A stretch of DNA of 63,765 nucleotides, counting the filler, from Chrysochromulina tobinii (lineage: Eukaryota): assembly GCA_001275005.1 (NCBI GenBank). It is 8 parts of 8 records of this genome, joined end to end, with 100 filler letters (N's around TTAATTAATTAA, not from the genome) between each part and the next. Parts side by side here need not be neighbours in the genome. Positions count along the whole stretch, not along the records: positions 25,303 to 35,896 come from JWZX01000690.1; 7 more parts are not named here. One strand, 5' to 3'. A model generated the notes under the pieces. That model saw only the letters and a list, made by a program, of their open reading frames with translations, was not told the DNA's origin and made no database searches. The translations under genes were made by a program, and so were the position numbers. Shown here piece by piece: positions 5,897 through 49,671 of the stretch. How positions within the stretch are numbered: position 1 is the stretch's first letter; every line of letters starts with the position of its first letter.

Positions 5897-5934
<38 letters not shown>

Positions 5935-8858: not shown

Positions 8859-8958
8859 NNNNNNNNNNNNNNNNNNNNNNNNNNNNNNNNNNNNNNNNNN
8901 NNTTAATTAATTAANNNNNNNNNNNNNNNNNNNNNNNNNNNNNNNNNNNNNNNNNNNN
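8859..8958. other. Artificial contig linker
   Basis: N run, then TTAATTAATTAA (stops in six frames), then N run; 100 nt. Confidence 0.98.
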
Positions 8959-9100: not shown

Positions 9101-9191
9101 GGTCCGGTGTCTTGGGTGTCGAATTATAAACATTGGCTGTGAATGCGGTCCGGTGTCTTGGGTGTCGAATTCTAAACATTGGCTGTGAATG
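9101..9191 (+). repeat. Tandem duplication of a 45-bp unit, followed by a GTGAAT/GT microsatellite to ~9260
   Basis: ggtccggtgtcttgggtgtcgaatt(a/c)taaacattggctgtgaatg at 9101-9145 and 9147-9191. Confidence 0.9.
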
Positions 9192-9543
9192 TATGTTTGT
9201 GAATGTGAATGTGTGTGAATGTGAATGTGTGTGTGTGAATGTGAATGTGTGTCTGTGTGACTTCTAACACATCACACAGCAGGTGGCGCACGTAGAAAAG
9301 TTTGCCTTTTGTCTCACCGGACCGTACCTAACGAGGCGGGCGACCGATGGGCGGCTAGAACTTCCCCCCGCTCCCCTGGAGAGGGGCGCCTGGGGCGGTT
9401 CGTTGACCCCCCTAGAGCGGTCCCCACAAATATGACGGCCTATATATATACGGCCCGGGCGGGTTCATCTGTATGATGCATGGTATGATGACACCCTTAC
9501 CCGTTACCCCCTCTCCAGACACCTCGAACCCACAGCACTTTTG

Positions 9544-14460: not shown

Positions 14461-14560
14461 NNNNNNNNNNNNNNNNNNNNNNNNNNNNNNNNNNNNNNNN
14501 NNNNTTAATTAATTAANNNNNNNNNNNNNNNNNNNNNNNNNNNNNNNNNNNNNNNNNNNN
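14461..14560. other. Artificial contig linker
   Basis: N-TTAATTAATTAA-N. Confidence 0.98.
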
Positions 14561-17500: not shown

Positions 17501-18488
17501 GGCGTTGTGCACGGTGCTATTGGAGTTGGAGCCGAACACCGTTCTACGAGTGAACCTACCGGGTCACATGGCGGCATCGAAAGGTTTTTGGTCCAAGCTA
17601 GGATTCAACGAGGATGGTGGCTGTTCAACGACAATGAGAATGCATCTCAAGGACCAGGCATGGGTTGCTTACATGAAGTCTGCTTTTCCAGAGCAGCTGG
17701 CCGTCGACGACATGGTGGTCCCATCCACAGATATCGTTCCCAGTCTACTCGAAGGAATCTGGTCAGCAGAGCACATGAAGACCTGGCAAGAAAAGGATCC
17801 TGAGTACCGGATGTTATTGGCAGACCCGAACGCCGGTGCCACGACGGTGTCTTCCTCACGAGCGGATAATATCAAGGAATCTGTGTCATTGATCTCGAAG
17901 TTGGATTACCTCGGAGAGCGCGTAACTGTCAAGGGGAATGGAAGCTTCTGGTTATACGCTGTCCTTGCGGGTGTGGGCCTCATGGAACACGCGAGGAAGT
18001 GCAAGATTACTTCAAAATCCCAAGGCGAGCATTCCCCAACTGCCCGAGACTTCAAAGTATCAGCTATGGTGATTCAAAAGATGAAACACTATGCGACAAC
18101 AACGAAGTGGGACATGACGGTGATGGCCAAGGATGTGCTCATTCAAGAAATCACAAGCCTTGAAGCCGCCTCCGCATCACGGAGTGGTACCTGGGGGGGC
18201 GGAGTGGACACCTATGGTGTGCTGTCGAACATGCTTGGAATTCAAATCGTCTGGCTGAATTTGACCACACCGAAGAGCTTCATCTTGTTCCCTGGGGGTT
18301 TGAAAGGGAACCAGAAGAGAGTATCCATGAATGCCCTGAAGACGACTATTGATGGTTTGGTTGCGGCAAACCTCAAGTTCGCTGTCGTGGAATATGATGG
18401 GAATGGACACTTTGCAGGATACTTGCAACGACGCCCCATGCGTTTGAGCCTCGACGTTATGAACTTCCTCGGGTTGTTCAATTCCTGA
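14562..18488 (+). CDS. 5'-truncated multidomain, probably transposon-encoded protein: Mutator-like C-terminal KGRP motif and CCHC zinc knuckle, WW domain, Gly-rich repeats, OTU, GNAT-like domain, second degenerate OTU
   Basis: Frame is open from the contig edge: IQPELRPTPKGRP...KKCSFCKDPGHRRPNC. WW LPKGWKSTMAPDGRVYYFHAVTKMTSWTRP. OTU VKGDGACFFRC...YDGSHY. GNAT LEVAHVCASGPRGSGALL...ASKGFWSKLGF. OTU2 VKGNGSFWLYA...WGG...YDGNGHF. Confidence 0.75.
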   Translation: MQTCHESGEFKQLIQPELRPTPKGRPVSLKPTAEDQRRAKGILEDKQSAQRAQTEFAKVATGAKSFNPGGKGIGKKCSFCKDPGHRRPNCPKAKSLLGQQVSQATVSYNDAHGEDERLEDEIDEEADNEVQIDQEDTRGQEEDGAHDGLHDLRAHMELDHVEQSDFGVDSKHKSRDIQHAASTYTVSTERASHSVLHDPTEAVAAPTVTATPVAQANDGGSDKGKDDLQLASGDGGIFGGDEDEDPAHTDLGQPSAQAPAPAAPSPSPANPGDEATLPKGWKSTMAPDGRVYYFHAVTKMTSWTRPVVKSSPHAPALAMMSSAPSFADVGFGGGGGFDASYGQAPAPAPALAPSFAAGSFGGGGVFSGGLDAGFGHAPAPAPAPAGGFGAGGFDGGVDFEGNGGDGMGGGMPGQMGGGMGCYGADAAPDAISIFGGGMGGGMGGGMPGEMVCGLGGFVLGNDAPPDKEPPAIPRSVSSISGVGFGGGVDTSFGQATAPAPPSTAPAPASSVDAKRCAELAVALEIEKQRDHSKLKGWSRDEIRGAKFLLEEQSFTICNVKGDGACFFRCLAVALDNNEGEHKTYRQAVTQHLISVIDAVGESETEQGAHPLYQMMSTSLPVEGDLSTREVIDQYVTYLSLNDEQVDHLGIQLSSRVLEIDIHVHQVDGQIYVHRSSDAVLPNNLELHVFYDGSHYQYLRRSELGLRPKRPERSFFGSDLRCNKIQQQFDNALRRWSVAIDMFDKAFYSLQSWERSRSVRVSTRSTPSSNIPIVQLRLPTEPPVTRSGTGIHDELGSRAAQASQSTAESSALQALLQAPPKPTWDMTLSCSSSQAQPKSGNHVKIYKPRQAGERLSSIYRKPYEYYLRQTVDGTEKVCLQWSGAQELHGDTPLELLQALSEEDAFAKRSSLTNFWHLLGRPLEKHHFYFVRKCQDECDGVVLLRSLMRQRQQQGRGAPRLTLEVAHVCASGPRGSGALLISALCTVLLELEPNTVLRVNLPGHMAASKGFWSKLGFNEDGGCSTTMRMHLKDQAWVAYMKSAFPEQLAVDDMVVPSTDIVPSLLEGIWSAEHMKTWQEKDPEYRMLLADPNAGATTVSSSRADNIKESVSLISKLDYLGERVTVKGNGSFWLYAVLAGVGLMEHARKCKITSKSQGEHSPTARDFKVSAMVIQKMKHYATTTKWDMTVMAKDVLIQEITSLEAASASRSGTWGGGVDTYGVLSNMLGIQIVWLNLTTPKSFILFPGGLKGNQKRVSMNALKTTIDGLVAANLKFAVVEYDGNGHFAGYLQRRPMRLSLDVMNFLGLFNS

Positions 18489-19529: not shown

Positions 19530-19629
19530 NNNNNNNNNNNNNNNNNNNNNNNNNNNNNNNNNNNNNNNNNNNNTTAATTAATTAANNNNNNNNNNNNNNN
19601 NNNNNNNNNNNNNNNNNNNNNNNNNNNNN
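19530..19629. other. Artificial contig linker
   Basis: N-TTAATTAATTAA-N. Confidence 0.98.
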
Positions 19630-22600
19630 GGGCAGCCCGTGCCCTTGAGCGCCGCGTCCGAGTGGATGCGGTGCATCACTTGGCCGGTCGGTGGGCGGCT
19701 GTGGAAGACCGAGCCCAACATCGAGGAGCCCGTCCGTGACTCGAGAGCCCCAGTCCAGGCGACGAAGGCACGCGATGAGCGGCGCGTCAGAGGAACCCGA
19801 AGTCCGTCATCGAGTTCGGCACCCCCCCGGCGCTCGACGAGCCGATCGCCTTGTGCGGCCATTGCGCGGACCGCCAGGGCGCCCTGCTCAAGAAGCGCCT
19901 GCTGGTGCAGGAGGGGGTGGTCGGATGCGGCGGAGAGCAGTGGGCGCAGCCCAGCCAGCCACACGCGATGGCCGAGGATGTGCGTGCAATTCCCGTCCGC
20001 ACGCGGCGCCGTGTCGAGACCATCAGAGGTTGGGCGAGCTGCGATGGCCGCTGTGGCTGGATGGTGCCAGATGGTGCCTTGCTCCGGATGATCTGCCGAC
20101 AGGTGCTCGAGGCCGTAGATGACGTGGGCGTCGGCCGCCGCCGCTATCGCCGTAAGGGCGAAGTGAGCAAGCGCCGTTTCATCGCGGACAGACCGAGCGA
20201 AGGCGCGCGGGATAGGCGTGATCCCACCCGGTTCCGCGGGCGAACGCAGCCGGGGGACATGGTGGGAAGAATAGGTGCGGGTAGGTGGCGCAGCGAACAC
20301 AAAGGCGTACGCTCGCGCCGCGATCTCGCCCAGCAGCCGATTCTGCACCTCTCGGCGACGTAGATCGAACGGATCCCCATTGGCAATGTCGTAGTTGACC
20401 ACCGTAAAGCCGTGCATCTCCCCGAGGGCAAGGAGGCCGAGCGGGCCATTCTGTGCGAGACCCCCAAAGAGGAAGAGGGCGCGTGCACGCCCACTGGGCG
20501 CGCGCATATCCCCTCCCGCCTCGCCCGCTGCGCGGATGCGATGCAGAGTGTCGATGCCGTCGTAGAAATTGTACATCAGCTGCTTGGGCAGTACCAGAGT
20601 GAAGACAAAGTGGTGCAGGAGCCCACCGAGCTCCCGCATCTCGCGGACAGTGAGTGTGCCGGCCTGAGCACCGCGAAGAGCCGTGAGTGCTTTGAGCACC
20701 TTGGCCGGCGAGAGGTAGGAGAGGAGCGCGGTAGCAAGGTACTGACCCCCAATCCACTCGCCTTGCACTCCGACGCATCGTTTGCACGGGTCGCTGCGTC
20801 GGAGGTTAGCGGCGGTACACTCGCGCCCCCAGTGCTCCGTCGCGTCGCAGAGGAGGACGGGTCCGATTGTGAAGATTCGCGGGTCATCGGTATAGCCGAA
20901 GGCGATCAGGAGATACCCCTGCACATGCGCGCCCACATCAAGTTCGGCGGCGACCTGTGCGCGAACGGCGAGCCACGCGGCGAAGGCGGGGCAGTCGGCT
21001 GCCCATTTGTCATATGTCGCGATGTGATCGCGGTGGAAATCGTCCTGAAACTTGTTGCAATATTCAGTGACATAGCCTTGGGCGTACCGCGACGAGGGCA
21101 CCGTGCCCATGCTCACACAACCCGCCTGGATAAGAGTAAGCGCGACATCGGGCGTATCGGCGAGAAGGCACGCGATGAGACGCGTGATGAGCTCTTGGGT
21201 GATCGCGGACGGGTCGAGCAGCATCAACTGCATGTAGATGCGCTGTCGGAAGCTCACCGCGAGTTGATGAAAGAATTTCGCAAAGTCGTCACCAAAGCTG
21301 AGCACGTCGAGTCCGAGCATCTCCGCCGGCGGTGTGAGTACGACGATCGCGAGAGTGAGCATAAAGAAGAAGGGCTTGAGCTCCGGCGGCAGGATAGGGG
21401 CACCAACGCCACTCCCTGGGGTCGGCCCAAATGGGCGGTACGGCGGGCGAGCGCTGATCGCCTGCACGCTGAATCGGGCAGGGTCGCGCCTCACGTCGCC
21501 CGTGGCAGCGAGCTCGCGCGCACGGAGCGCTCTATCGAGCTGGGAGCCGATGCTCGCGTTGAGAGAGAGAACAGGGGCCGCCTTCCCGAAGGTTGTCATG
21601 GCGCCAGCGGGGGGTGCCGTGTCGTTGTTGACCATGCGCCACGATGTCAGGTTGCTCTTCACGACGCACCCCACGCACGAGAATCTGCCTGGCGCAGTGA
21701 GCAGGTTGAGCCGACCCTGTGCCAAAGAGGCCGCCGAGCGTGCCGCAAACCATCCTGCGTCGATCATTTCGCGCAGCGTCTCATGTACCGAGGCGAAGCC
21801 GTCGGCAATCGAGGACATGGGCGGGATCATAACAAGCTGCCCGCCGAGTTGCGTGAAGAACTCGACCCCGTGGGTGGTGCAGGCGTCGCGCAGCGCGGCG
21901 TCCGGTGAGCCCCTGAGGAGGTTGGCGGCATAGGTTGGATCAAGGCTGAAATTGGGCGCGCGAGAGAGGTCCGCGAGCGCAATGCGCTCGCCGTCGTGGC
22001 AGAGCACATGGCCGGCGGCGATGAGCGCCGCTGCCCACGGGTAGCACGCCTTCTCATCGAGATTGCACGCGAACAGTTTCGGCTTTGGGCAGCCCTGGGC
22101 ACGTCCCGTCTTGGCTGCATGCAGTAGCCACCGCCATGTAGCTTGTTGGCATTCAAGAGCTGCTGCATAGGCATCTGGTAGCAGGACGGTGTCCCAGTCG
22201 AGTGCATCTAACGGGACGCAGCCCGAGGGCGGCGGGGGTGGCAGGGGCGGCAGCGGTGACGATGCAACCGAAGGCACGTATGGGAACGGGACACGATGCA
22301 GGCGAGTGTCGCTCGCCGAGTAGCACTGGCTACGCAGCGTTTCGTTGATGGCATTGAGCTGCAGTGGCTTACACACCGCCAGCCATCCGGCGCACTCAGC
22401 GCGGTCGACGGGGGAGCGTGCGGTGTCGGCAATGCGCCGTTCGAATTCGTGACGCAGCGCGCGCATGCTCGCCTGCGCCTTCTCCACGACCGTGTCCCAT
22501 GGGACTGGGTGAGCACGCGCCTCGACGAGCACTTGCTGGGGCTCGAGTGCCAGCTCGGGTTGAGCCCCCACACGTACGCCGTCAGGAAGAGCAGCCGTGG

Positions 22601-23240
22601 GCTGGCGGAAGGCACACGCTCGCGCAAGCGCAAGAGCGGCCACCCGAGCGACCGTCGCGTTGCCATGGAGAGCGGCGAGCGTCGCCCACGCGATATTGTT
22701 CGAGGATTGAGCCTGTGTCAAAGGAGTGCGTATCCATTCATCCATGGCGTCGCGCGCTGTCATCTCCCAGTCCATCGGCGGCGGGTCGGTGATGAGGGCG
22801 CCCGAAACAACTAAGCCCAGCGTCTCGATCTCAAAATAGTAGAAGGCGTGCACGTCCGTCCGGCCGGGGAAGAGCGCCGCCGCCCATCTCGCCGCGTCCG
22901 CGTAGTCAGTCTCACGCGAGATAAAGGATCGGCGCTTGCCAAAATAAGCCTCGCCACACTCGTCGAGCGGTAGACCAATCCGAGGTGCCGTGCCGTCAAA
23001 GATGAGGGGCACGAACACATGCGCCGATGCAGCCTTGGCCGAGGCAGTGAGCTGGACCGTTGGGACTTGGGTTTGGTCGAGCCCGGGCGGCTTGTCCGCC
23101 CACGACGCAGTTTTCGTCAAGGAACCCTGCAGTGCGATCGAAGACGGCTGTGCGCCCACCCCGAGCCTTGGCGTCTCTACCGGCGCTGTATCAAGCTTGC
23201 TGCCTTCATCCTTGACGGTCACCCTCGAGGGATCCCGCAC
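19630..23240 (-). CDS. Pol-like ORF: reverse transcriptase, inserted C5-DNA-methyltransferase-like domain, RNase H start
   Basis: RT motifs FGDDFAKFFHQL, SMGTVPSS, YTDD (20883-20894), EWIG, LSPAK...TVREMRELGGLL. MTase-like ALFLFGG...YDIANG..FDL...FVFAAPPTRTYS...YGLEH (~20040-20490). RNase H start IHSDAA. Confidence 0.8.
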
Positions 23241-25202
23241 GTGGTTTAGACAAGAGATCGCAACGGGCGAGCGTCGAGATTGGAGTAGCTACTCCATCTA
23301 TGTGCAGCCAACTGGTGGCGGACTTGAGATCGCGCATCCGGATGACCGAGTGCTCGGCAAGCACCCCGGTGATATAAGCTTGCATCACCTGGTTCCTGAC
23401 CTTGATGTTGACGAGGCCCGCCTCGTTATGGTAGGCGATGGCCGCTTGCAGTACTCTCTCGAACGAGTCTTGCCCCGAGAAGTTGAGCAGGGCGAAGAAG
23501 CCCGTATCGTCACGCGCGACACGCGTCAGGAGCAGCTGGTTGCGGGTGACCGACCCATATACCTGGTCAGCCGGTACGTGAACCTGCTCGTGAACAGCGT
23601 CCGGGTTGTGGTAGAACGCCAGCGCAGCATAGTAGAGGTCATTCTCGAGGTCAAAGGACACGCTCCCCGTGCAAAAGACCTCCCACAGCTTCTTGAGCGG
23701 TGGGTACTTGCGCAAGGGATCCGCGATGGCCACGACGTGCGCCGGCATGCACAGCTCGAACGCGAGCTGACCCATGAAGGTTGGGCCGTGCATGCGGAGC
23801 GTGTTGGCGATCATCTTGACCAGCGGGATCACCGGCACAGCGTCCTTTTGGCCACACAACGCGTGCATGAAGATGGCCTCGCCGGAGCGGATGATTGCGC
23901 CGATGATCGCATGCGCGTGCTCGTGGGAGTCGAACATGCCCTGGAGTGCCTTGTTGAGCGCAGTGAAGGCCGGATCGCCCAGTCTCTTGTACACCTCGGC
24001 CTGGTGGGCCGTGGAATACCCGATAAGCCTGGCCTCTCCTGACGGAACGCCCTCCTTGGCCCGCTGACGGTCTTGCTCCTTGTCCTCGAGGATATCAAGC
24101 ACCTTGGCGGTCCGCTCGGCAGGTGACAGCTGCTGCATATCTGCACCCGCGAAGCGCGGGGTGAGAAATGAGAGCTTCGCCGCCAGGATGGCAAGGTCGC
24201 CTACCACGGGCTCGGAGGCCCGGATACCAGTGCGAGCACATAGAGTCCGAATCTCCGTCCACGCCGCCGATGGCGCCACCGCGCAGAAGCGACCTCCTGC
24301 GCTGTCCTGGCCCAAGATAGGGATGAGGGCCTCATAGTGGTCCACCGCAAGAAGGATGTTCTCCACTGTGAGTGCGTCGTGCTGGCTTGAGGCAAGGCCC
24401 GCGGCCAGCCGGCGCCGAGCATCCACGAGTCCGGCATGCAGAACTTCGAGCTGCTCGGGCGGCTGGGCGCCTTCGAAGGCGCGCCTGAACTCCTCCACTT
24501 GGGCTCTGGCATCGATCCAGGTTGGTAGGTCGAACGTCCCACGTATCGTTGCGGGCACGAGCGACTGGAGTGCCGACTGCAGCACCATTGTCACTACCAC
24601 CTGATAGCCACCTTGCGCTGAGCGGTCTACCCCGGTGAGGCGAGGGCCGACTGTGAGCTCGAAGGCGCCTAGCGCTTCCGGGGCAATGTCACCGTATGCC
24701 AAGATGTTTCTGGCGGTGACCGTCGCCGGCGGCGGCGGGCCTGCTGGCGGGCCTGGGCCTCCGCTGGGCGGGCCTTGTGCTGCCGCGGCTGCCGGTGCAG
24801 GTGCTGCGAGTGGGTAGATTGTGGCCACGTCAATTGAGTCGGCCGCATCCAGACGGAAGATGGGGCTCGCTTGCATGTTCGCCAATTTGCGCAGGAAGAC
24901 ACGTAGCTGCCCCGTCCGAAGCTGCGAGCTCAGCATATTGGACTCGCGGGCGCGAGTGAGGAGTAGGTCCGTGATCTCTCCCAATTTGGTGGAGCCGATG
25001 ATTGTGCTCTCAATAATCAGTCTTGCAAACTCGGGCGAGTACGTCACCACGCGCCCGAGCAGCCATATGATCGCAGCCCAGCGTATGCCTCTAGCTCCGC
25101 GCCCGCCGCCCTTAGCCTCCAGGCTGGTGGTGAGCTCCGGGGTCAAGGTGTGGAGTGCCGAACTCTCTCCACTCGTGATGACGTAGATCTGTCCATCTGT
25201 GC
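23206..25202 (-). CDS. ORF1 (gag-like) of the retroelement; 5' end runs to the contig edge
   Basis: At least 646 aa in an open frame upstream of and overlapping pol; no recognisable domain. Confidence 0.6.
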
Positions 25203-25302
25203 NNNNNNNNNNNNNNNNNNNNNNNNNNNNNNNNNNNNNNNNNNNNTTAATTAATTAANNNNNNNNNNNNNNNNNNNNNNNNNNNNNNNNNNNNNNNNNN
25301 NN
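25203..25302. other. Artificial contig linker
   Basis: N-TTAATTAATTAA-N. Confidence 0.98.
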
Positions 25303-25710
25303 CGTACCCCGAGGTAACCCCGAGGCGCGAGGGGGACTGTGCCAATGCCATCACAACAGCCTGAGGTCGCCTAGTGTCATGCCGTTCCGTGTGTGCGATC
25401 ACTTACTAAATCACTTACTGTATCGTTTCTTCGTCCCCGCGTCGTTCCGATCACTTCAACTGATGACTCGGGCATGCGAAGCATCCTGGGTCCAGCGTGC
25501 GGGCGTCGCTTCAAAAATTGGGGCTGTCTCAGCCGTTGCAGGAAAGAAAAAAAGGCCCATCCCCTGTAGGTGAGGGCGGTGACGGTTGGCCGGCGGCGGC
25601 AAGGAGGGGCGAAACAGCTAAAAGACCAAAAGACTGTGACGAGGAAGAGCGAAGAGCGCCCACGCTCCGGCTCACACACGGACTCTGCAACTCTCCGAAT
25701 CGTCAAACAC

Positions 25711-25908
25711 TCAAACTTGCGAAATCACTTTTTTAAAGGAGGCTGCGCCTGCCCAGGTGTACTTGGTGCCCGACGTCTGAGTTGGGGAGGAAGAAGTGCA
25801 GCTGCCACAAAAACCGCCGGCGTTGTTGCAGCCGTCGATGATTTTGTAGGTCGTTTCGGCCAGCGTGGCGGGCACGTGGAAAGCGAGGAGGAACAGCGCG
25901 AACTTCAT
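25711..25908 (-). CDS. Possible small secreted Cys-containing protein or first exon
   Basis: AAAATG context and signal-peptide-like MKFALFLLAFHVPATLA. Confidence 0.3.
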   Translation of the reverse strand: MKFALFLLAFHVPATLAETTYKIIDGCNNAGGFCGSCTSSSPTQTSGTKYTWAGAASFKKVISQV

Positions 25909-26203
25909 TTTACATTTTCCAGAAATGGCAGAAGTTCAGGGCGTGCTGAGAGTGTGCCTCGAGTCGGAGATTTTGGAATTTCTTCAATTTGATCAAGCTA
26001 GAGTTTCGTCGTCGTCCCCCATCGGTCACCTAACCACAGTCTCACCGTACGGCTGCACACCCCTCGCGTCAACACAAGTTCTGAGTACATGTATACTCGC
26101 TCTCACAAAATCACAAAAAGCTCCCAGGACTTTCTAATTTTAAGAAATTTTGTCAAAGACTGGTTGAAGAGTTTCGTCCACGAAACTGGGCAGTAGGAGT
26201 AGC

Positions 26204-27866
26204 TCAGACCCACGGCACAAGCCCCACAAGCCTCTGGCCCAGGGGAGTGAGCACTGCGGGCTCCCCGCTCGCCTCGCCTGGTGGCGGGTGCGGCAGCTCG
26301 GCCTCGTGAGGATCCTCGTCGAGCAGCGGCAGCCGCAGGCGCCAGCGCTCGACACGGCGCTCGCGGCTCTGCCGGCGGACCCTGGCCGTCGCCACCTGAG
26401 GCAGCCCGCCAAGGAGTGGGTCAGACGCCGAACTGTCGCGCTCAGGTTGGCGCTCGGGACGACGCTCAAGATGGCCATCGCTGCCACCCGCCGCCGTCGG
26501 GTTGCCGCCTTGGTTGCCGCCCTGGTCGCCGCAGGACTCGTCCTCAACGGCCCCTGCGTCCTCCTCGTCCCTCTTCGAGACCCCCTCCCTGCTCTCCTTT
26601 GCCTGAGCCTCGAAGGCCACCTCCTCAGCTCGTGAGGCCATCAACAGGGAGGGCAGGTAGGCAAGCGTGCCCGCATCCGCCATGCTCAGGGGTGCATCGG
26701 GGTGACGTGTCGGACCGAGGAACGGCGCCGCGTCCTCGGGCACCATCGACACGTACGCGGAGATGCGTGGGCGCGTGCCCACGTTCGGCGCGGGCCCGTG
26801 TGGAAGCAGCGAGTGCCACACCACCAACGAGCCTGCCGGAGCCTGCGCGCCGATAGGCAATCAGGGGCCATCAGGGGCCATCAGAGAGGCCATCAGGGGC
26901 AGTCAGAGAGGCAATGGGGGGCAATCAGAGACGCAATCAGAGACGCAATCAGAGACGCAATCAGAGACGCAATCCGATACGCAATCAGATACGCAATCAG
27001 ACAATCAAGGCAATCACCTCGACACTGACTGCGGCCGCCTCGAGCGCCGCAGCTGCCTCGCCCTCCGGCGCTCGATCGGCGCTGCGGTTGGCGGGCTGCG
27101 TACGATCCCACTTGAGAAATCGCCGGTGGAAGCCCGGCACCTGATGAGGGGCGCAATCAGACGCAATCAAGACGTGCTCAAGACGCAATCAGGACGTCTC
27201 GGTGGAAGCTCGGCACCACGCGCAGCGCGCCCTGCAAGGCCGAGGTTGACTCGAGGTACACGACGCCTTGCATGACAAATGGCACTGGCCAGGCTGCGCG
27301 GCGCGTGTCCACGTCCCAGTGGAGACCCACCTGATGAGGGGCGCAATCAGATGCAATCAGGCGCAATCAGGCGCAATCAGGCGCAATCAAGACGTAATCA
27401 AGACGTCCCAGTGGAGACCCACGTGCACGTCGCCAGGGTCGGACCACGCCGGGTGCGACGCGTTCTGCGGCGGCTTGAAGTGCGCGCGGTCCGTGGTCAC
27501 GTATAGCCTCCGCGTGCCGTAGAGGTCGGAAAAGATGTCGTGCATGCGAGGCAGCTGCCGAATGGCCCAGAGAGACCGATGGTGGAACATTTGAACCATG
27601 CCGCATGGACCGTGGTGCGGCTTCCTGCCGTTGGGTAGGGTATCCTTGTAGATGTCGAGCGTGTTCTTGTACCACGTGGAGACGTCCGCATCGTCAGCTC
27701 CAATGTAGCTGCGAATCGCAGACGCGGCGTCGCTGGCAAGCGCGAGAGGCACGGCATCGGGCACCACCAGGTAGCCGTTCTGCTCGAAGAAGGAGTATTG
27801 AGCCTCTGTGAGGAACGAGAGGGTCCAAGTACGCGGCGAAGGCCAGATGAATGCTTCCTGGGACAT
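26204..27866 (-). CDS. Phytanoyl-CoA dioxygenase (PhyH) family protein, 4 exons (introns 27331-27422, 27141-27216, 26843-27017)
   Basis: FFEQNGYLVVPDAV, LHWD, QGVVYL, GALRV|VPGFH, E|APAGSLVVWHSLLPHG..PN...PR. GT-AG splicing restores the frame at all three introns. Confidence 0.9.
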
Positions 27867-28499
27867 CCGCGCGCTCAACGAGGTTGCCTGCACATTCACC
27901 CCGCACCTGTGGGGTGGGGCACGTGCGGAACGAGCGCTCGATTTTTCAAACTTTGAAGCCCTTCAAAAATCAATGTTGTGCGGAGATGGATTGGCGGGTG
28001 TGGCATGCAGCTCGTAACGCAAGCAGTGTGAACGGAGGGCGCCTCCCATACTCTCTCGGCAAGGTCGCGAACGCAGCGCGACCGAGTAAGCTCAATACGG
28101 CGCGTCAAACTTCCTTCTGACGGTTTCGCCCGAATAGTCGGTGCGATTCCACAAGTCCTTACGCGCAAAGAAGGCACGATGCCGCAAGCATCGTGCCCTC
28201 TTTGCGCAGCGTCCATCCCCCCTCACCTCCCGAGGTCGGACGACATCGAAGGCGAGAAGAGGGCGTCTCTACGAAGGCGCCCACGCACGCACACCGGATC
28301 GTGCATGCGCACATCCGGGCAGACGAAGCGCGATGGCGCTCCCTCTGCTTTCTCTCTAATCGGGCAAGTCGGTCGGCATGCTCCGGGCACATGGCCGACG
28401 ACCCCATCTCGATCGACATCGCGAACTCGGCCGACGACTCCACCACGAACGTTATCGCAAAGCCGTTTGTAGTGTGGGGACACGGGCTGCACGCGCGGG

Positions 28500-29030
28500 G
28501 AGCACGCAGCGGCAGCAGCAGCAGCAGCAGCCATGAGCAGCAGCAGAACAGGCTGCCAGCCCTCACCGGCTGGCAGATCCTTCAGGGGCCGTCGGCTCAA
28601 GCGAGCCCACGGCCACCTCACTGCAAGTAACCGTCGACGACTCGAAAGAGTTGACGAGCGGCGAAGAGTGCGCGATCACCTTCCGCGAGTAGGGAGGTCG
28701 ACGCAGCAGCAGCAGCAGCGGAACAGGCTGCCAGCCCTCACCGGCTGGCAGATCCTTCAGGGGCAGTCGGGTAGCAGCAGCAGCAGCAGCAGCGGTAGCA
28801 GCAGCAGCAGCAGCAGTGGCCGTCGGCTCGAGCGAGCCCGCGGCCACCCCACGGCCACCCCACCGCCACCCCACCGTCAGCAACGCTCGACAGCTCGAAA
28901 TAGCCGATGAGCGGCGAAGAGGGCACGACCACCAACCCCGGCGGGAGGTCGAGGCAGCAGCAGTATAGCAGCGGCAGCAGCAGCAGCAGCAGCGGAACGG
29001 GCTACCAGCCCTCACCGGCTGGCGGACCCA
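28500..29030 (+). repeat. Three copies of a (CAG)n-gaacaggctgccagccctcaccggctggc unit
   Basis: Copies near 28535-28590, 28702-28763 and 28975-29025, with CAG tracts. Confidence 0.8.
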
Positions 29031-29559
29031 AGAACAGGGCCGACCGGAGTCCATCAGGGGCACACCGGCGGCCCTAACGAACAACCCACGACAGACGGCT
29101 CGAGCGAGCCGCCGGCCGGAGAGGCAAGAGCAGGGCGCGACGCGCGCGCGATATGGGACCATTGGGAGCGCAGCTGCCGGGCACCATGAGGAACGTTGGA
29201 TGCGGGAGCGAAGCGCAATTAGCGTTATGCTCTCCGTCCTTCGGACGGGTCGCTCATGAACCCAATGGTCCGCACTCCTAATCGAGTGCTACCCGACGGG
29301 CAGGAAATGGCCGAAGGTGTGTAAGTGTGTACCGTGCGGTACAGTCACTGTCACTAGGCGCGTGCATGCGGCGTGCGCATGCGGCGCGCAAGCGGGCCGG
29401 GGGGAGACGAAACGGCCCGGCCCGCGCTAGACGAGGCGCGTGAAGTCACACGCCCTTGCGTTAGTGTTTCAGCGCAGGCACCACACTGTGCTTCCAAAAT
29501 TGGAAAGCGCCCACGAACGTTCATCAAAATTGGCCCGTCACGAACACTCATCCTTCAAG

Positions 29560-31185
29560 ATGATGAAGCTGCGCGCCACCTCGACGCGTTTGCTGCAGCT
29601 CGCGCTGTGCTCCTACTTTCCAACGCTGGTCAGACCTGTCTCCACGGCCACGTCGTCGGTGGTGCGACTCCAGGCAGGCAAGGCACGGCTCTTCAAAAAC
29701 GCTGGGCATCCGTTGGTCTTTAGCGGCGCGGTCGACAAGGTGCTCGGCGATCCGGAGCCAGGTGCGATCGTGGACGTCGTCGACGGGAAAGATGGGCTCG
29801 TTGGCTGGGGCGTATTCAACCCGCATTCCATGTATCGGGTGCGGCTACTGGCCACACCTGAAGAGCCGGCGCTCATCGCTCATCGCGACCTTCGCAAGCT
29901 CATTAGCCACAGGCTCGAGGCCGCCTTGAAGTTGCGCGCGGCATTGAGCTTGCCATCGCCCGAGACGACCGCGTACCGTCTCATCAACAGTGAGGGCGAT
30001 CGACTTTCCGGCCTGACCGTCGACGTCTTCGGCGGCACCGCCGTGGCCGTCACCTCAGCGATGTGGCTCGAGCAGCGGTCCGACATGGTGGTCGAGTGCC
30101 TGCGCGCGCTTCCCGGCATCACGGAGGTTGTGTGGAGGCGGAGCGACGGCCGGCTCCAACAAGACGGGTGGGAGGTGCCGAACGCGAAGGTCGAGGAGGT
30201 AGAGGAGCATCAGAGCCTTACCGATGACAGCCCGACTGCGCATGCCTCTGCGCCCGCGCATGCTTCTGCGCCCGCGCCAGCGGCGCAACCGTCGCCGCCG
30301 CCGCCACTGCCCGTCCTCATATACGAGAGTGGCGTCAAGTACCTGGTCGCACCTGTGCTTGGTCAGAAGAGCGGCTTCTACTGCGACCAGCGCGACAACC
30401 GGCGTCAGCTCGCAGAGCTCTGCCGCGACAAACGGGTCCTCGATCTGTTCTGCTACTCGGGGGGCTTCTCGTTGTCGGCGGCGAGGGCGGGCGCGCGCCG
30501 GTGCGTCGGCGTGGACTCGTCGGGCCTCGCGCTCGATCTTGCGCGCCGCAACGCCGCCCTCAACGGCTTCGAAGCGCAGTGCGAGTTTATCCAAGCTGAC
30601 GTGGACAAGTTTCTGCGCGCGGTGCACCTACCAGGAGGAGGACAGGAGGGCGACGTGGCGGGCGCAAGCGACGCGCGCGAGGTCGATGTGGTCATCTGCG
30701 ATCCTCCGAAGCTCGCGCCGTCCGTCAAGGACCTGCCCCGCGCCATCCCAAAGTACCGCATATGGGTTGCCTCCCTCATCTGTTGACACTCCTGATTGCC
30801 TCCCTCATCTGATGACACTCCTGATTGCCTCCCTCATCTGATGACACCCTCAACAGTTACCGCAAGCTCCACGGATTCGCGATGCGCTGAGTCCCTGCAT
30901 GCAAGTGCTCAGCACGACGCACCCCGCCCTCCTCCCCACAGGTACCGCAAGTTCAATGGGCTCGCCATGCGCTCATTGCGGCCTGGGGGCCTGCTGCTCT
31001 CATGCACCTGCAGCGCCGCGATGACCCAATCGGGAGGGTTCGTCAAAATGCTCCACGAGGCCGCTTGGGAGCAGGGGCGTGCCCTGACGGTGCTGCGTGT
31101 CACGGGGCCCGCGGCCGATCACGTCATCCACCCGGCGTGCCCCGAGAGCAGCTACCTGACCGCCGTCCTCGCATTCGTGCTCTGA
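29560..31185 (+). CDS. RlmI-like rRNA m5C SAM-dependent methyltransferase with PUA domain, probably organelle-targeted; intron 30753-30941
   Basis: GHPLVFSGAV, YRLINSEGDRLSGLTVD, GQKSGFYCDQRDNR, VLDLFCYSGGFS, DPPKLA and SCTCS. Splicing AA|G gives PKYRKFN. Confidence 0.9.
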
Positions 31186-31479
31186 GGTGTGAACACGGAT
31201 CGGTGAGCGTAGCATGTTCCCCGAGCGTGCTCTGCCTTGATTGTGCTACTGTGTATCCATATCTGCAAGAAGCCTGTAACGCGTGAGATGCCGATTTTGT
31301 CGCGTCTGTCGTGATTGTTCACAACTTGAACTTCACATCGCCACAAAAGCTACACATCCAAGGTGTGTGTATTCTGAGCGGGCAGTAACAGAGCCGTAGC
31401 ACCGGTTGTCGCGTCTGTCGTGTTAACGTTCACACATCCTTCAAACGCCCGCACGCCCGGAAAACGTTGCTGCATTCCC

Positions 31480-32718
31480 ATGGACGCGCTGGATGGGCTG
31501 ATGACGGGCTATGGCGCGAACGGCCGCTCGATTACCACGAACGGCAACATGAACGGCACCGCGAACTTCCGCGAACTACGTGCGAACTCCTTGACCACTG
31601 TCTACCGCGATCGCAGTAACCCTCAGAGACGTGTGAGCAGTGACAGCTTGGCAGGCATGCCGAAGGAGGCTGGGCTTCCAAAGGCTCAAGGCCGCGTGGG
31701 TAGCGCAGGCCTTGCGGGCATGCCGGCCGGTTTCGCTGACGTGTACGCGAACCGGGCTCCGATGATGGGCACGAGCCTCGGTCTCAACGTGAGCCGTATG
31801 TCGATGGCACCGGCTTTGGCGCCGCCGCCCAAGCAGTCCTCACGGCAGCCGCTGGCCTCGCACCCACTGGGGAACAATGCTGGCGGTACATGTACTGCTG
31901 GGCCTGCACTGGACGCGCTGCTCGACGGCATCACGCTGGAGCACGGCTACGCGTGCGATCCTAACAGCAGCTGGCGCGAGTACATGGAGGACGACTACGC
32001 GGTCGTAGAGGACTTTGCCGATCGGCGCGGCAGCTTGTACTGCGGGCTCTACGATGGGCACGGCGGGCGGCTCGCCGTCGATTTCGTCGCCAAGAACCTT
32101 CACGGCAGCATCGAGCGCGAGCTGCGCAGCGGCCCAGCGGGGGACGCTCCTCTCGAGGCTATGCGACGTGGCTTCCTCAAGTGCGACCGGCAGCTGCTGC
32201 AGTGCGGCGCGATGCAGGTGGGCACGACGGTGGCCGTGTGCCTGTGCCTGCCGGGGCCGGGCGGCCAGATCGAGCTGCACGCGGCCAATGCGGGCGACAG
32301 CCGCATCTTGCTCATCTCGGACTTGGGACCCAAACGGCTCTCTGTAGATCACGTGGCCTCAGACCCAATTGAGGCCGAGAGGGTGCAGGGGCAGGGCGGA
32401 CGCATCCTGCGCGGGCGGGTGGGCGGCGTACTGGCGGTCACGCGGGCCATGGGCGACCATAGCCTCAAGGGGAGCTGCGCGGGCAGTGGGCTCACCGCCG
32501 ACCCTCACTGCGTGCTGCACACGTGCGGCAGCGCCGATCGCTTCGTGGTCCTCGCCTCTGACGGCCTTTGGGATGTCCTGAGCGATGAGGATGCTCATAA
32601 GCTCGTTCTGCAGCACATGAATCTGCCGCCCAAGCAGATCGCCGAGACGCTCGTCGTGCAAGCGGTCGCCCGCGGCTCTCGTGACAACATCTCGGCTCTC
32701 GTGGTGAAGCTGCGATGA
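31480..32718 (+). CDS. PP2C/PPM protein phosphatase
   Basis: REYMED, YDGHGG, GTT, NAGDSR, LAVTRAMGD, LASDGLWD and GSRDNIS. Confidence 0.93.
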   Translation: MDALDGLMTGYGANGRSITTNGNMNGTANFRELRANSLTTVYRDRSNPQRRVSSDSLAGMPKEAGLPKAQGRVGSAGLAGMPAGFADVYANRAPMMGTSLGLNVSRMSMAPALAPPPKQSSRQPLASHPLGNNAGGTCTAGPALDALLDGITLEHGYACDPNSSWREYMEDDYAVVEDFADRRGSLYCGLYDGHGGRLAVDFVAKNLHGSIERELRSGPAGDAPLEAMRRGFLKCDRQLLQCGAMQVGTTVAVCLCLPGPGGQIELHAANAGDSRILLISDLGPKRLSVDHVASDPIEAERVQGQGGRILRGRVGGVLAVTRAMGDHSLKGSCAGSGLTADPHCVLHTCGSADRFVVLASDGLWDVLSDEDAHKLVLQHMNLPPKQIAETLVVQAVARGSRDNISALVVKLR

Positions 32719-32959
32719 GGAGCTCGAGCGGGAGATTATTTGATGAGGGAGGCAATCGCGCTTGAGAGCCGGAGTCAGAGCGGGCGACCACTTGCTTGGC
32801 GTGAGCATGGCGTGAGCTTGGCGGCGGTCACCATTATCCTGGAGTTCTCGTGGCATTCAACGGTTGATCGATCGGCTGTGGCACAGCGCGTCTGGAACTC
32901 TTGCGGGCCTGTGGGCATGGGTCCGGCGGGCGGGATCCTACAAGTGTGGTTTGAGAGGA

Positions 32960-33141
32960 GGCTTTTTTCGATTTGGCGTTTTCCATAAAGCGTCCTTTTG
33001 AGCGCTGTTCATGTGTATGAGTGAAAATGGCCGTCTCGCCCACGGTGGCCACGGGAGCTGAGATGGGGCTTTTTTCGATTTGGCGTTTTCTGAACGCGTC
33101 CTTTTGAGCGCTGTTCATGTGTATGAGTGAAAATGGCCGTC
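32960..33141 (+). repeat. ~75-bp direct duplication upstream of the PX-aminotransferase gene
   Basis: 32960-33035 matches 33067-33141. Confidence 0.9.
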
Positions 33142-33193
33142 CCACCCAAGGTTCGGAAGCAAGCCAAGGAAGGAGTCTCAATCCTGGGCAGCT

Positions 33194-34964
33194 ATGAGCA
33201 CAGCGCCGTCTGCGCCCATGTTGCGCACCAAAATCGAGGGCCATAGGCTCTCCACTGACCAGAGGGTGGATGCAGCTATCTTCGTTGTCGAGCAGTCGCA
33301 CGTCGAGTATGTAATCAGCTCCTCGTACGAGGGTGCCACCGTCCGCGTGCAGCGCCGTTTCTCTGAATTCGAGCAGCTCCACCAAGGGCTCGCTCACACC
33401 TGGTGCGACACTTCCGGCGTGCCCATTCTGCCTGAAGTCTTCCCTGTCTCGAAGCTGCTCTTCCACACCGCGTACGAGCTCGATGAGCGCATGAAGTTGC
33501 TCAACATTTACATGCGTGGGCTAGTCGGCTCGATTGAGTCGACGCCGCCCACTGATCTGCTCGTGTTTCTCGGTTTTGTTGGCGCGGAGAGTTCAGCGGC
33601 CGGGGTCATGATATTAGGACCCGAGCCACCGCGCAGCAGCAGCAGCGGCAGCAGCAGCAGCGTGGGCAATCCAAGCCCGTTCAAGTTGGAGCGCTATTTC
33701 GGAGTGCACGAATTCACCGCCAAGGTGCTGCTGAGCAGTAGCGACGTTGAGGCGTTATCGGTGCACGAGCTGCTCTGATGATGACTTCTGATGATGACCT
33801 CTGATGATGACCTCTGATGACATCTGATGACCTCTGATGATGACCTCTAATTGCCTCCCTCATCAGGTGCGCGAGCTGCTGCTGATTGCGCGTGAGGCAG
33901 GCGACACGCACTCCCTTGCTCTTTGGGAGGGCCTCCATCTCGGCTACACGGAGTCCCAGGGGCACCCAGAGCTGCTCAAGGAGATCGCGGCAACTTATTC
34001 CGCAGCGGTCACGCACGATCATCTGCTCGAGGTCGTGCCCGAGGAGGGAATCTTCATCGCCATGTCCTGCCTTCTCGCGCCGGCCGACGAGGTGATCGTC
34101 ACATGGCCCGCGTATCAAAGCCTGTATGAGGTGGCGCGCGCGCGCGGTGCCAATGTGCGCCGGTGGGAGGCTAGCGGCAGTGTGTATGATCGGCAGACCT
34201 TCGACGTTGGCGCGCTCGAGGCGCTCATTACCGAGGCGGGGGGGCGCGTCAAGCTGATCGTCGTCAACTTCCCGCATAACCCCACCGGCGCGTCGCTGAG
34301 CCCCGACGAGCTCACGCGGCTTATCGGATTGGCACGCCACGCGGGCGCGTGGCTCTTCTCGGACGAGATGTATCGCGGGCTGGAGCTCGGCGCCCTGCCG
34401 CCGCTGCCTTCTGTGTGCGAGCTGTACGAGAAGGGGGTCGCCCTCTCCGGGATGTCCAAGGTGTACGCGCTGCCTGGGCTGCGGATTGGGTGGCTTGCCT
34501 GCCGCGAGAGCCACTTCATCAAGCAGGCTCGCACGTACAAAGACTACACGACCATCTGCGGGTCGGCGCCCTCGCAGGTGCTCGCTCTCATTGGAATGCG
34601 CCATCGGGTCTCGCTCGTCGCTCGAAGCAAGGCCATTGCGGCTGAGGGCCTTGCGGCCACGGTCGCGTTTTGCGAGAAGCACTCGGATAAGTTCGTCTTC
34701 CACCCGCCGGATGCGGGGCCCGTCGCGTACCTCGCCATTAAGCAAGGCGCTCGTGGCGAGGCGCTCACGGCAGCGGATGCGCAGGCCTACTCTGAGCGGC
34801 TCGTGAGGCAGACGGGCGTGATGCTCATCTCAGGCGCGATGTTTGAGGCAGAGGAGCCGTTCCTGCGATTGGGGTTTGCAAAGGCCGGCTACGCAGCGAG
34901 GCTCGCCTCATGGGAAGCGACCTTCGAGACTGTCGTCCTGCCTGGGCGGGAGGCTACGGCGTGA
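33194..34964 (+). CDS. PX domain fused to a PLP-dependent class I/II aminotransferase; intron 33761-33866
   Basis: PX motif VEYVI...VQRRFSEFEQLHQGL...ERMKLLNIYM. Aminotransferase motifs FKLERYF, LGYTESQG, NFPHNPTG, SDEMY and SKVYALPGLRIGW. Splicing keeps the frame. Confidence 0.88.
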
Positions 34965-35645
34965 GGTTAGCGTGGGCCTCGAGCGTGGCCAAGGGCTCAG
35001 CTTGAGGCCGCTCCCCGGTGCGCCGCAGTCAGGAAAGGGCCCTGAGCCTGCGTCCGCGGGACCGGAACGGGACCGGAATTCGATACGCCCCTCCTGAGGA
35101 GTCGGCTGTCGGGCGGAGGGACCACGCTCCACTGGAGAGGCTTGGGCTAGGGGGAGGGTAGTTCTTTCTGGAAACTGGACTTTTATATGGATGTTCACAC
35201 ACTATCGTATATCGTACGGAGGTTTACGACCGGTAGCCCTAGTGACGAAACCCACTGACTGTCTAATAATGAGATGACGAAACTTAAGTGAGGTCAGTGA
35301 CGAAACTTCGACGAACCAAACACGACATAGCGGGCCATGTGACGTACAAAGTGACAAAAACGAATCTCGAAACGAATACATGTACAATTGAAGGCGGCCG
35401 AGACCGCGTTTCGTGTTAACGTTCACAGCCGGATGACAAATTTCGGACACGCATCTGGAAAAAAGTGGTTCGGGGCAACAGTGCCGCTGCTGTACACGAT
35501 CGTAAATGGACGTGCTTTCATGGCATCAAGAGGATAGGCGTGGGCGTTCTTGTGGTGAATTGGGTGTGAATTCTCCTCTGAGGAACACCATGTTGAAACA
35601 CCATGCAATTTATGCCATTCTAGCTTGTAGGCGATAGGGTAATGA

Positions 35646-35815
35646 CCTGAGTGTTGAAACCTTGAAACCCTCCCCCAAGGTCAAAATCTCGCGCACCACC
35701 ATGTTGAAACTTTGGGTAACATCCTGAGTGTTGAAACCCTCCCCCAAGGTCAAAATCTCGCGAATAACTATGTTGAAACTTATTCGGGTTTGTCCTAAGT
35801 GTTGAAACCCTTAAG
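35646..35815 (+). repeat. Tandem-like repeats (tgttgaaac; aaaccctcccccaaggtcaaaatctcgcg twice)
   Basis: Directly visible repeated units. Confidence 0.75.
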
Positions 35816-35896
35816 GTAGTCCGCTCATGGTGTACATGGGGCAAAAACTGATCTCCAAAAGTACTGAAGGGATTTGAACGAAACTCAAGCCAGAGG

Positions 35897-35996
35897 NNNN
35901 NNNNNNNNNNNNNNNNNNNNNNNNNNNNNNNNNNNNNNNNTTAATTAATTAANNNNNNNNNNNNNNNNNNNNNNNNNNNNNNNNNNNNNNNNNNNN
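35897..35996. other. Artificial contig linker
   Basis: N-TTAATTAATTAA-N. Confidence 0.98.
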
Positions 35997-49571: not shown

Positions 49572-49671
49572 NNNNNNNNNNNNNNNNNNNNNNNNNNNNN
49601 NNNNNNNNNNNNNNNTTAATTAATTAANNNNNNNNNNNNNNNNNNNNNNNNNNNNNNNNNNNNNNNNNNNN
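49572..49671. other. Artificial contig linker
   Basis: N-TTAATTAATTAA-N. Confidence 0.98.

What the first reader, a model, noticed from the sequence alone, without database searches (positions are those of the whole stretch)
27141..33866. Intron family built from a duplicated exon start, short tandem repeats and a shared CCTCATCAG acceptor (candidate new intron-gain system)
Seen: in unrelated genes, introns begin with a copy of the first bases of the NEXT exon. PhyH intron 27331-27422 (minus) has an exact 20-nt copy, GTGGGTCTCCACTGGGACGT. PhyH intron 27141-27216 has 17 nt with 1 mismatch. PX-aminotransferase intron 33761-33866 has 14 nt with 1 mismatch. RlmI intron 30753-30941 has 8 nt. After the duplicate come TGATTGCG(C/T)C or TGATGACCTC repeats, and three introns end in TTGC(G)C(C/T)CCCTCATCAG. 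Known: Introners in Micromonas and Aureococcus are DNA-transposon-like with TIRs and short fixed TSDs. Inference: here a staggered cut at a GT is filled in, so the target-site duplication supplies the donor and the insert supplies the acceptor, and splicing restores the coding sequence exactly. Long variable TSDs, no TIRs and a reiterated short unit suggest target-primed or reiterative reverse transcription, or templated repair.
Basis: partly seen in the sequence, partly recalled or inferred. Interest (0 to 1): 0.88.

Follow-up and report, generated by a model that had tools for sequence, protein, structure and literature searches.

The report
Introns built from copied exon starts
In a freshwater haptophyte alga, two families of short introns begin with a 13-58-base copy of the next exon's start and end in a shared splice-acceptor piece; they are likely new introns made by pasting only the tail end of an existing intron into genes, a route that published introner screens would miss.

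Summary
The contig is Chrysochromulina tobinii. RNA contigs confirm three of the four introns and reveal a fifth; the 20-nt-copy intron (27331-27422) was seen only unspliced (0 of 4 runs), though homologues require its removal. In 147 metagenome loci, 83 of 164 CCCTCATCAG-type acceptors carry an upstream copy of the next exon's start (control 2 of 326). A second, unrelated acceptor family does the same (19 of 30; control 0 of 54). Copies run 13-58 nt with no fixed length or terminal inverted repeats, lie sense-strand in coding sequence and start at donor-like G|GTRMG sites. Relatives at 60-75% protein identity appear to lack these introns. Best reading: the 3' tail of a spliced intron is copied into genes, and fill-in of a staggered break supplies the donor. 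An RNA-templated route is favoured but unproven; no empty allele or reverse transcriptase was found. The 2025 introner survey lists zero families for this species. This scan noted the same family once before, on another piece of this genome (e1-2577349). Verdict: new variant of introner-type intron gain.

The parts
27423..27866 (-). PhyH-family dioxygenase, exon 1
   Evidence: 60 homologues, most with PF05721; collinear after splicing
27331..27422 (-). Type-A intron, 92 nt, phase 0: 20-nt exact copy of next exon start (27403-27422 = 27311-27330), CTGATTGC repeats, CCCTCATCAG acceptor
   Evidence: not seen spliced in 4 RNA runs
27217..27330 (-). PhyH exon 2
27141..27216 (-). Type-A intron, 76 nt, phase 0: 17-nt copy with 1 mismatch (27200-27216 vs 27124-27140), repeats, CCCTCATCAG
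   Evidence: joint in X13
27018..27140 (-). PhyH exon 3
26843..27017 (-).
   Evidence: joint in X13 and X14
29560..30752 (+). RlmI-like rRNA methyltransferase, exon 1
   Evidence: PUA_3 and Methyltrans_SAM; homologues
30753..30856 (+). RlmI compound intron, first unit: 8-nt copy, three 29-nt type-A repeats, decayed acceptor CCCTCAACAG
30857..30941 (+). RlmI compound intron, second unit: decayed 32-nt copy of exon 2 start (25/32) plus type-B cassette GCATGCAAGTGCTCA...CCCCACAG
   Evidence: whole 189 nt joined in X13, X15
30942..31186 (+). RlmI exon 2
33194..33760 (+). PX domain exon of PX-aminotransferase
   Evidence: PF00787
33761..33866 (+). Type-A intron, 106 nt, phase 0: 14-nt copy with 1 mismatch, TGATGACCTC repeats, CCCTCATCAG; the exon reads CTGATTGC just after the copied stretch (microhomology to the repeat unit)
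   Evidence: joint in X15; same junction in KOO35970.1
33867..34964 (+). Aminotransferase class I/II exon
   Evidence: PF00155; 100% identical to C. tobinii KOO35970.1

Best explanation
These are spliceosomal introns whose donor is a 13-58-nt copy of the next exon's start and whose branch-point-like motif and acceptor come from one of two shared cassettes; they were likely gained by copying the 3' tail of an existing intron, probably from its RNA, into donor-like sites of transcribed genes. SHOWN: anatomy, splicing of 4 of the 5 window introns, sense-strand coding location, donor-like targets, two cassette families, later tandem slippage. INFERRED steps: (1) the free AG-3' end of an excised intron is joined to, or primes at, the sense strand just before a G (partial reverse splicing at an R-loop, or target-primed copying); this fixes the exact acceptor end and the orientation. 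(2) The opposite strand is cut 13-58 nt downstream, and the RNA tail is copied and truncated around the branch region. (3) The upstream end is filled in, which duplicates the exon start, and is end-joined to the copy, sometimes by microhomology. (4) Only events at G|GTRMG sites, or inside existing introns, survive selection. The branch-point repeats then expand or shrink, keeping the intron near 78 nt, and the duplicate decays.
For: Copy present at 83 of 164 type-A and 19 of 30 type-B terminal acceptors versus 2 of 326 and 0 of 54 permuted controls. Length is continuous, 13-58 nt, median 25, in 85 curated cases; duplicate and filler lengths are anticorrelated in type A (rho -0.43, p 3e-4, n=67) around a 78-nt median. 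60 of 72 strong matches start at exon +1 and most of the other 12 are internal indels; there are no TIRs; a branch-point-like A lies 16 nt from the end in 50 of 67 type-A introns that have such a motif. 71 of 77 scorable copies are sense to a coding frame, at the method's ceiling (155 of 167 on its own training genes); joined flanks are open in 35 of 39 and retention breaks the frame in 34 of 39. Targets are more donor-like than coding GTs (-1G 33/47 vs 153/552; +3R 42/47 vs 290/552; +5G 29/47 vs 162/552). 8 of 11 non-GY starts follow an AG, as expected if they sit inside existing introns. Two unrelated cassettes both stop exactly at CAG, and occur as A-then-B compounds (window RlmI, L048). 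Gain: 24 of 24 close-relative RlmI gene calls stop at the intron, while more distant relatives on 5.8-32-kb contigs read through all five junctions. Precedent for a precise 3' and a truncated, end-joined 5' junction: linear group II intron retrohoming (PMC3280974, passages); R-loop reverse-splicing model (PMC4540971, passages).
Against: No empty allele: two strain pairs share all intron positions. No reverse transcriptase or transposase among 22 long window ORFs; the genome could not be searched. About half of type-A acceptors (70 of 164 below score 8) show no long copy, although short matches are in excess among them (>=5 nt in 12 of 67 vs 3.0 expected). 25 of 85 units sit directly behind another cassette: 12 look like whole-unit tandem repeats, and 12 new units resemble the adjacent tail more than chance (permutation p 0.002, own tail ranked best in only 3 of 12, one of them a ten-way tie). 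So local DNA duplication can make this anatomy with no RNA step. No clear remnant of a donor intron's own 5' end was identified in the linkers. Donor-like targets fit selection as well as mechanism. Microhomology at the 5' junction is modest (5-mers 12 of 71 vs 7.2%, p 0.005; 3- and 4-mers not significant). Reverse splicing by spliceosomes into DNA is not known to occur (PMC11146597, passages). The intronless relatives are inferred from gene calls and contig lengths, not from their DNA.
Confidence: 0.42

Rival explanations
1. DNA-only template switching or staggered-break repair. A nascent or broken strand that has copied the exon start jumps into a repeat array of another or a neighbouring intron, copies to CAG|GT, and re-anneals at the upstream GT by microhomology. 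Selection keeps the spliceable products.
For: Every donor junction reads CAG|GTR, which offers ready microhomology (151 of 197 motif hits are followed by GT or GC). Patchwork inserts alternate exon and repeat pieces (L005, L062, L057). New units at existing acceptors resemble the neighbouring tail. Neighbouring separate introns are slightly more alike than random (score 17.9 vs 16.4 +/- 0.5, 25 pairs). Daphnia neointrons show 4-12-bp repeats of the adjacent exon from staggered breaks (PMC4202315, passages).
Against: It has no strand or gene memory, yet 71 of 77 copies are sense in coding frames. It gives no reason to stop exactly at AG in two families. Variant concordance between neighbours is not significant (11 of 25, p 0.08).
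Confidence: 0.27
2. Renewal rather than gain. Introns arose earlier by another route. Tandem duplication across the 3' junction (tail plus exon start), followed by precise loss of the upstream part through spliced-RNA-templated repair, leaves copy plus tail at the same position.
For: The intermediate exists: 12 new units at existing acceptors. About half of acceptors have no long copy. G at -1 in 44 of 60 cases resembles ordinary intron positions.
Against: It needs two rare steps for the 60 of 85 units that do not follow a cassette. It does not explain A-then-B compounds or where the first introns came from. Short and decayed copies form a continuum.
Confidence: 0.13
3. A tiny non-autonomous retroelement (SINE-like, read in either orientation, with a tandem-repeat tail) is inserted by a LINE-type protein by target-primed reverse transcription, giving long variable target duplications.
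For: Variable long duplications, one fixed and one variable end, and no TIRs fit target-primed insertion (LINE behaviour recalled, not tested). About 5% of classified introners are non-LTR derived (PMC12130899, section 6).
Against: Two unrelated elements would both have to end at a spliceosomal acceptor. There is no poly(A) tail. Almost no antisense or non-coding copies were found. No partner was found in the window.
Confidence: 0.13
4. Cut-and-paste DNA transposon (MITE) introner as in Symbiodinium, Polarella and Aureococcus.
For: Same splice logic: donor from the duplication, acceptor carried (bioRxiv 2020.10.14.339549 parts 1-2; 10.1101/2022.06.06.494994 passages).
Against: Those families have fixed 3-8-nt duplications and often TIRs; here 13-58 nt with no mode and no TIRs.
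Confidence: 0.04

Closest known systems
Introner-like elements of Symbiodinium and Polarella glacialis classes 4/5 and 6/8/10, and Aureococcus (Roy et al., bioRxiv 10.1101/2020.10.14.339549, parts 1-2 of 4 read; Gozashti et al. 2022, passages)
   Same: Families of related introns; 5' splice site recruited from the target duplication, 3' splice site carried; mRNA unchanged; phase-0 bias (20 of 33).
   Different: Fixed 3-8-nt TSDs, often TIRs, end-to-end similarity. Here the duplication is 13-58 nt and variable, only the 3' half is shared, there are no TIRs and only one orientation.
Emiliania huxleyi introner fam24 (PMC12130899 supplement file 8, rows seen)
   Same: Haptophyte; listed as 'co-opt 5' carry 3'', unknown class, note '10bp terminal direct repeats'.
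   Different: Five copies, automated TSD of 2 nt; sequences not seen, so any relation is untested. The same survey lists 0 families for C. tobinii (file 7).
Micromonas introner elements without TSD/TIR and the R-loop reverse-splicing model (PMC4540971, passages)
   Same: Always on the coding strand; proposed to spread from intron RNA.
   Different: Whole introns inserted cleanly with no duplication; here only the tail is shared and the 5' end is host exon sequence.
Linear group II intron retrohoming by partial reverse splicing and end joining (PMC3280974, passages)
   Same: Precise 3' junction; truncated, heterogeneous 5' junction with microhomology and locally copied bases; second-strand cut inside the downstream exon.
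   Different: A ribozyme with its own reverse transcriptase in an engineered assay; the overhang is reported lost, not filled in. Here spliceosomal introns with no known protein partner. A working analogy only.
Daphnia pulex neointrons from staggered double-strand breaks (PMC4202315, passages) and tandem-duplication intron gain (PMC3443670, passages)
   Same: Direct repeat of the adjacent exon end; repeated gains at one site.
   Different: Repeats of 4-12 bp (33 cases); the passages seen describe no shared acceptor cassette. Tandem duplication takes both splice sites from a duplicated AGGT, whereas 34 of 85 units here have no AG before the copy.

Membership tests
Spliceosomal (U2-type) intron | Removed from RNA at GT/GC..AG ends | tested here: met
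   Joints for 4 of 5 window introns; 27331-27422 not joined in 4 runs
Introner (broad sense: repeated, recently spread introns) | Many related introns in unrelated genes | tested here: met
   85 curated units with 85 distinct exon starts in 75 loci; two families
Introner (broad sense: repeated, recently spread introns) | Similarity reaching both intron ends (within 10 intronic nt), as the published pipeline requires | tested here: not met
   5' 13-58 nt is host exon sequence; criterion
Introner (broad sense: repeated, recently spread introns) | Absent from orthologues of relatives | tested here: inconclusive
   Intron-unaware gene calls at 60-75% identity read through all five junctions on long contigs; DNA not seen; no polymorphic empty site
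TIR DNA transposon / MITE introner | Terminal inverted repeats | tested here: not met
   At most 7 of 12 terminal matches, mode 2-4, in 82 inserts
TIR DNA transposon / MITE introner | Fixed short target-site duplication | tested here: not met
   13-58 nt, no mode
Non-LTR retroelement (SINE/LINE) insertion | Variable-length target duplication with one truncated end | tested here: met
Non-LTR retroelement (SINE/LINE) insertion | Insertion in both orientations and in non-coding DNA | tested here: not met
   71 of 77 sense in coding frames; the sample was chosen by an exact motif
Non-LTR retroelement (SINE/LINE) insertion | Autonomous partner sharing the 3' end | not testable with these tools
   No whole genome held; none in 22 window ORFs
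Tandem-duplication (AGGT) intron gain | Both splice sites from a duplicated exonic AGGT, no foreign insert | tested here: not met
   Acceptor is a shared cassette; 34 of 85 lack AG before the copy
Group II intron or other curated RNA family | Match to an Rfam model | tested here: not met
   0 matches at gathering score in 25303-35896

The most novel reading that the evidence does not exclude
The spliceosome itself seeds new introns here: the 3' end of an excised intron is joined to the sense DNA strand of a transcribed gene (half of a reverse-splicing reaction), and host repair copies the tail and duplicates the exon start, so any intron can become a template and no transposon is involved. This would be the first genome-scale footprint of spliceosomal partial retrohoming.
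Probability: 0.25. Interest if true: 0.93.

Novelty: new variant of a known kind. Interest (0 to 1): 0.78.

Why it matters
How new spliceosomal introns arise is a long-standing question, and most gained introns have no known source. This is a large, young, directly readable set in a cultured alga with a small genome. Each intron records the cut positions (duplication length), the template (cassette variant) and its age (decay of the copy). Because the 5' end is host sequence and the middle is low-complexity, screens that need similarity at both ends score this genome as introner-free, so the route may be overlooked elsewhere. It makes the RNA-based intron-transposition hypothesis testable by population genomics. 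It also predicts a birth cost: the new intron has a rival donor (CAG|GT) at its own acceptor, which may explain retention of the perfect-copy intron.

Tried and rejected
No whole genome is held, and the records behind the loci could not be opened, so no genome-wide count or partner search was possible. Empty-site search: all-against-all BLAST of the loci gave two strain pairs (L005/L007, L098/L127); both share intron positions and differ only in repeat number. Viral and prokaryotic collections: 1, 1, 4 and 2 motif hits. L001 and L153 were read and look like chance; L151 ends in a type-B cassette; L149, L150, L152, L154 and L155 were not read. No Rfam match; no reverse transcriptase or transposase domain in 22 long ORFs. 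Local-donor test between separate neighbouring introns was weak. Cassette variant versus exon-start triplet showed no visible association (not formally tested). The intergenic stretch 27988-28555 has no cover in the four RNA runs, a weak hint that the unspliced contigs are pre-mRNA rather than DNA; contigs drop rare forms, so absence of the 27331 joint is not proof that it is never spliced. The first read-laying was swamped by the DNA run's repeat joints. Assembly artefact rejected: DNA run X4 and four RNA runs cross the copy-repeat junction of 27331-27422 in single contigs. Chance rejected by shuffles and permutations. Literature: nine completed full-text searches found no description of this family. 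Neither cassette motif occurs in the searched supplements of PMC9860276 (file cut when stored) or PMC12130899 (files 13 and 14 not searched). Their consensus FASTA files on GitHub and the algal genome papers in subscription journals could not be seen and may bear on novelty.


Full report
Setting. The window is a string of contigs joined by N linkers; the finding lies in one contig, 25303-35896. The aminotransferase exon is 100% identical to Chrysochromulina tobinii KOO35970.1, recorded on a 10,594-bp contig, the length of this one. The published genome is 59 Mb with about one intron per gene (PMC4580454, passages).

Observation. The four introns and their copies are as described. Three score above shuffled windows; the RlmI 8-mer alone does not. 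RNA contigs confirm 27141-27216, 30753-30941 and 33761-33866 and show a fifth intron, 26843-27017. 27331-27422 was joined in none of four runs: all four have a contig running through it, and one X13 contig holds its last 42 nt yet is spliced at the next two introns. Unspliced contigs also exist for the 26843, RlmI and aminotransferase introns. Removing all three PhyH introns gives a 439-aa protein with no indel at the junctions against 17 of the 60 homologues, which I aligned; retention of 27331-27422 stops the frame after HWDV. The RlmI intron is compound: type-A unit, a second decayed 32-nt copy (25/32), then another cassette.

Beyond the window. Of 197 unique hits, 125 are followed by GT and 26 by GC, against 5% and 8% after CAG in the window. 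I dropped three loci as likely chance hits (L001, L142, L143) and sites with short flanks, and kept sites with no cassette unit in the next 60 nt (164 of 241 type A, 30 of 35 type B). An upstream copy of the exon start scored >=10 in 83 of 164 and 19 of 30, against 2 of 326 and 0 of 54 with permuted exons. A few whole-unit tandem repeats survive that filter. A stricter set (score >=12, repeat-poor exon) has 85 units, 71 A and 14 B, all with different exon starts, in 75 loci. Type B (GCATGCAAGTGCTCACCAC...CCCCACAG) is unrelated in sequence but has the same anatomy. Contigs from elsewhere pile up on the repeat in the DNA run (summed depth 71,368 vs 46 in the next bin); this is not a copy number, but the family is clearly highly repeated.

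Anatomy. Copies are 13-58 nt (lower bound set by the score), median 25, with no mode; introns have a median of 78 nt; in type A, longer copies go with shorter filler. 28 of 73 ungapped copies are perfect, median identity 96%. Among 67 sites without a long copy, matches of 5 nt or more are in excess (12 vs 3.0), so short and decayed copies form a continuum. The copy starts at exon +1 in 60 of 72 strong matches, there are no TIRs, and the type-A unit is a branch-point-like CTGAT whose last A lies 16 nt from the end in 50 of 67. 71 of 77 scorable units are sense to a coding frame (8 too short to score), joined flanks are open in 35 of 39 and retention is disruptive in 34 of 39; the frame classifier was calibrated on its own training genes. 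Targets resemble 5' splice sites at -2, -1, +3, +4 and +5. Where copy and exon differ at +3 to +6, the intron is nearer the consensus in 6 cases and further in 1. In 18 of 24 close-relative RlmI gene calls a stop follows the last exon codon, implying a donor changed from the exon-like one seen here (inferred from proteins). 25 of 85 units follow another cassette: by eye 12 are whole-unit repeats, 12 are new units at an existing acceptor and 1 is A-then-B. Strain pairs differ in repeat number at shared introns.

Gain or ancient? Gene calls from metagenome DNA of close relatives stop at the RlmI intron (24 of 24 that reach it), so those calls ignore introns. Relatives at about 60-75% identity read through: P0333 (5.8-kb contig) and P0081 (32 kb) for RlmI; P0348 (12.5 kb) for the aminotransferase; P0003, P0020 and P0022 (7.9-10.4 kb) for the three PhyH sites. 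Contigs that long are unlikely to be transcripts, so the introns are probably lineage-specific gains, but I did not see that DNA and found no empty allele.

Mechanism. Fixed 3' end at CAG, variable 5' end, variable long duplication of downstream sequence, two unrelated cassettes and sense-in-gene placement together point to the tail of an excised intron as template (inference). The geometry matches a top-strand event at the G and a bottom-strand cut further into the exon: filling in the upstream end yields exactly a copy of the next exon's start. Linear group II introns give precise 3' and truncated, end-joined 5' junctions by partial reverse splicing (PMC3280974, passages). Reverse splicing into R-loop DNA has been proposed for Micromonas (PMC4540971, passages), and post-splicing spliceosomes can join an intron's 3' end to a 5' splice site (PMC11146597, passages), though reverse splicing into DNA by a spliceosome is not known. 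Target-primed copying by a borrowed reverse transcriptase would leave the same scar; I count both under the best explanation (0.42). DNA-only template switching (0.27) is real at least locally: new units at existing acceptors resemble the adjacent tail and some inserts are patchworks. It does not explain the strand bias. Renewal of older introns (0.13) and a LINE-driven mini-element (0.13) remain open; a TIR transposon is excluded by two failed features. My confidence in the descriptive claim (real family, donor from the copy, acceptor from a cassette) is about 0.9.

Known systems. The splice logic is that of Symbiodinium and Polarella introner-like elements, which have fixed 3-8-nt duplications (bioRxiv 2020.10.14.339549, parts 1-2 of 4). 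The 2022 survey reports a marine Chrysochromulina family with a 4-bp duplication that carries its donor (passages). Its pipeline needs similarity within 10 intronic bases of both ends and removes low-complexity families. The 2025 survey lists 0 families for C. tobinii, and a five-copy E. huxleyi family noted as '10bp terminal direct repeats' (supplement rows; section 6 read). Daphnia neointrons have 4-12-bp repeats of the adjacent exon. A general survey reports 4-30-bp direct repeats near splice sites (PMC11782384, abstract only). Nine paper searches found no account of this family; subscription papers and the surveys' consensus files were not seen.

Verdict. Real, abundant, probably young introns that work like introners but fail the defining tests of the described families. 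New variant of a known kind; interest 0.78. If the template is intron RNA handled by the spliceosome (about 0.25), it would be a new route of intron birth.

Noticed in passing
window 8859-8958, 14461-14560, 19530-19629, 25203-25302, 35897-35996, 49572-49671, 61997-62096: Seven N-TTAATTAATTAA-N linkers: the window is eight joined contigs, so neighbours across linkers are not real neighbours. All five cassette introns lie in one 10.6-kb contig; several other genes are long uninterrupted ORFs, so the introns look clustered.
   Followed up: partly
window 32741-32760, minus strand: A lone type-A cassette end (ends AA, not AG) just after the PP2C stop codon, antisense to that gene; possibly a decayed non-intronic copy.
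   Followed up: partly
window 31360-31436 and 35569-35896: Two other highly repeated short sequences (summed depth 25,154 and 13,551 in DNA run X4); the second holds short direct repeats around 35661-35808.
   Followed up: no
window 14562-18485 (+), 19632-23288 (-), 23209-25200 (-): Long ORFs (1308, 1219, 664 aa) in or beside a lower-GC stretch, with only WW and zinc-finger hits or none in Pfam; possible unknown mobile element.
   Followed up: no
window 2883-6956 (+): 1357-aa ORF with a PIF1-like helicase domain.
   Followed up: no
window 9765-13826 (-): FG-GAP-repeat protein kinase with 13.7 copies of a 147-nt tandem repeat.
   Followed up: no
window 33194-34964: PX domain fused to a class I/II aminotransferase; the fusion is conserved in a 74%-identical relative (P0189). 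The NCBI model is 42 aa shorter than the C. parva model and than my 555-aa reading.
   Followed up: partly
L033, L038; window 9184-9260: (TGAATG)n runs inserted inside the exon copy of two introns; a similar array lies in the window. Possibly a third filler type.
   Followed up: no
L151:4495-4554: A contig of the viral collection ends in a complete type-B cassette followed by GTGAGT; probably algal DNA or a chimeric contig.
   Followed up: partly
window 32007-32169 and 28186-28306: Clusters of variants at about half depth in DNA run X4 and in RNA runs: a second haplotype, strain or paralogue, although C. tobin is described as haploid.
   Followed up: no
window 28617-28947: Intergenic direct repeat of about 250-nt period with CAG runs.
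   Followed up: no
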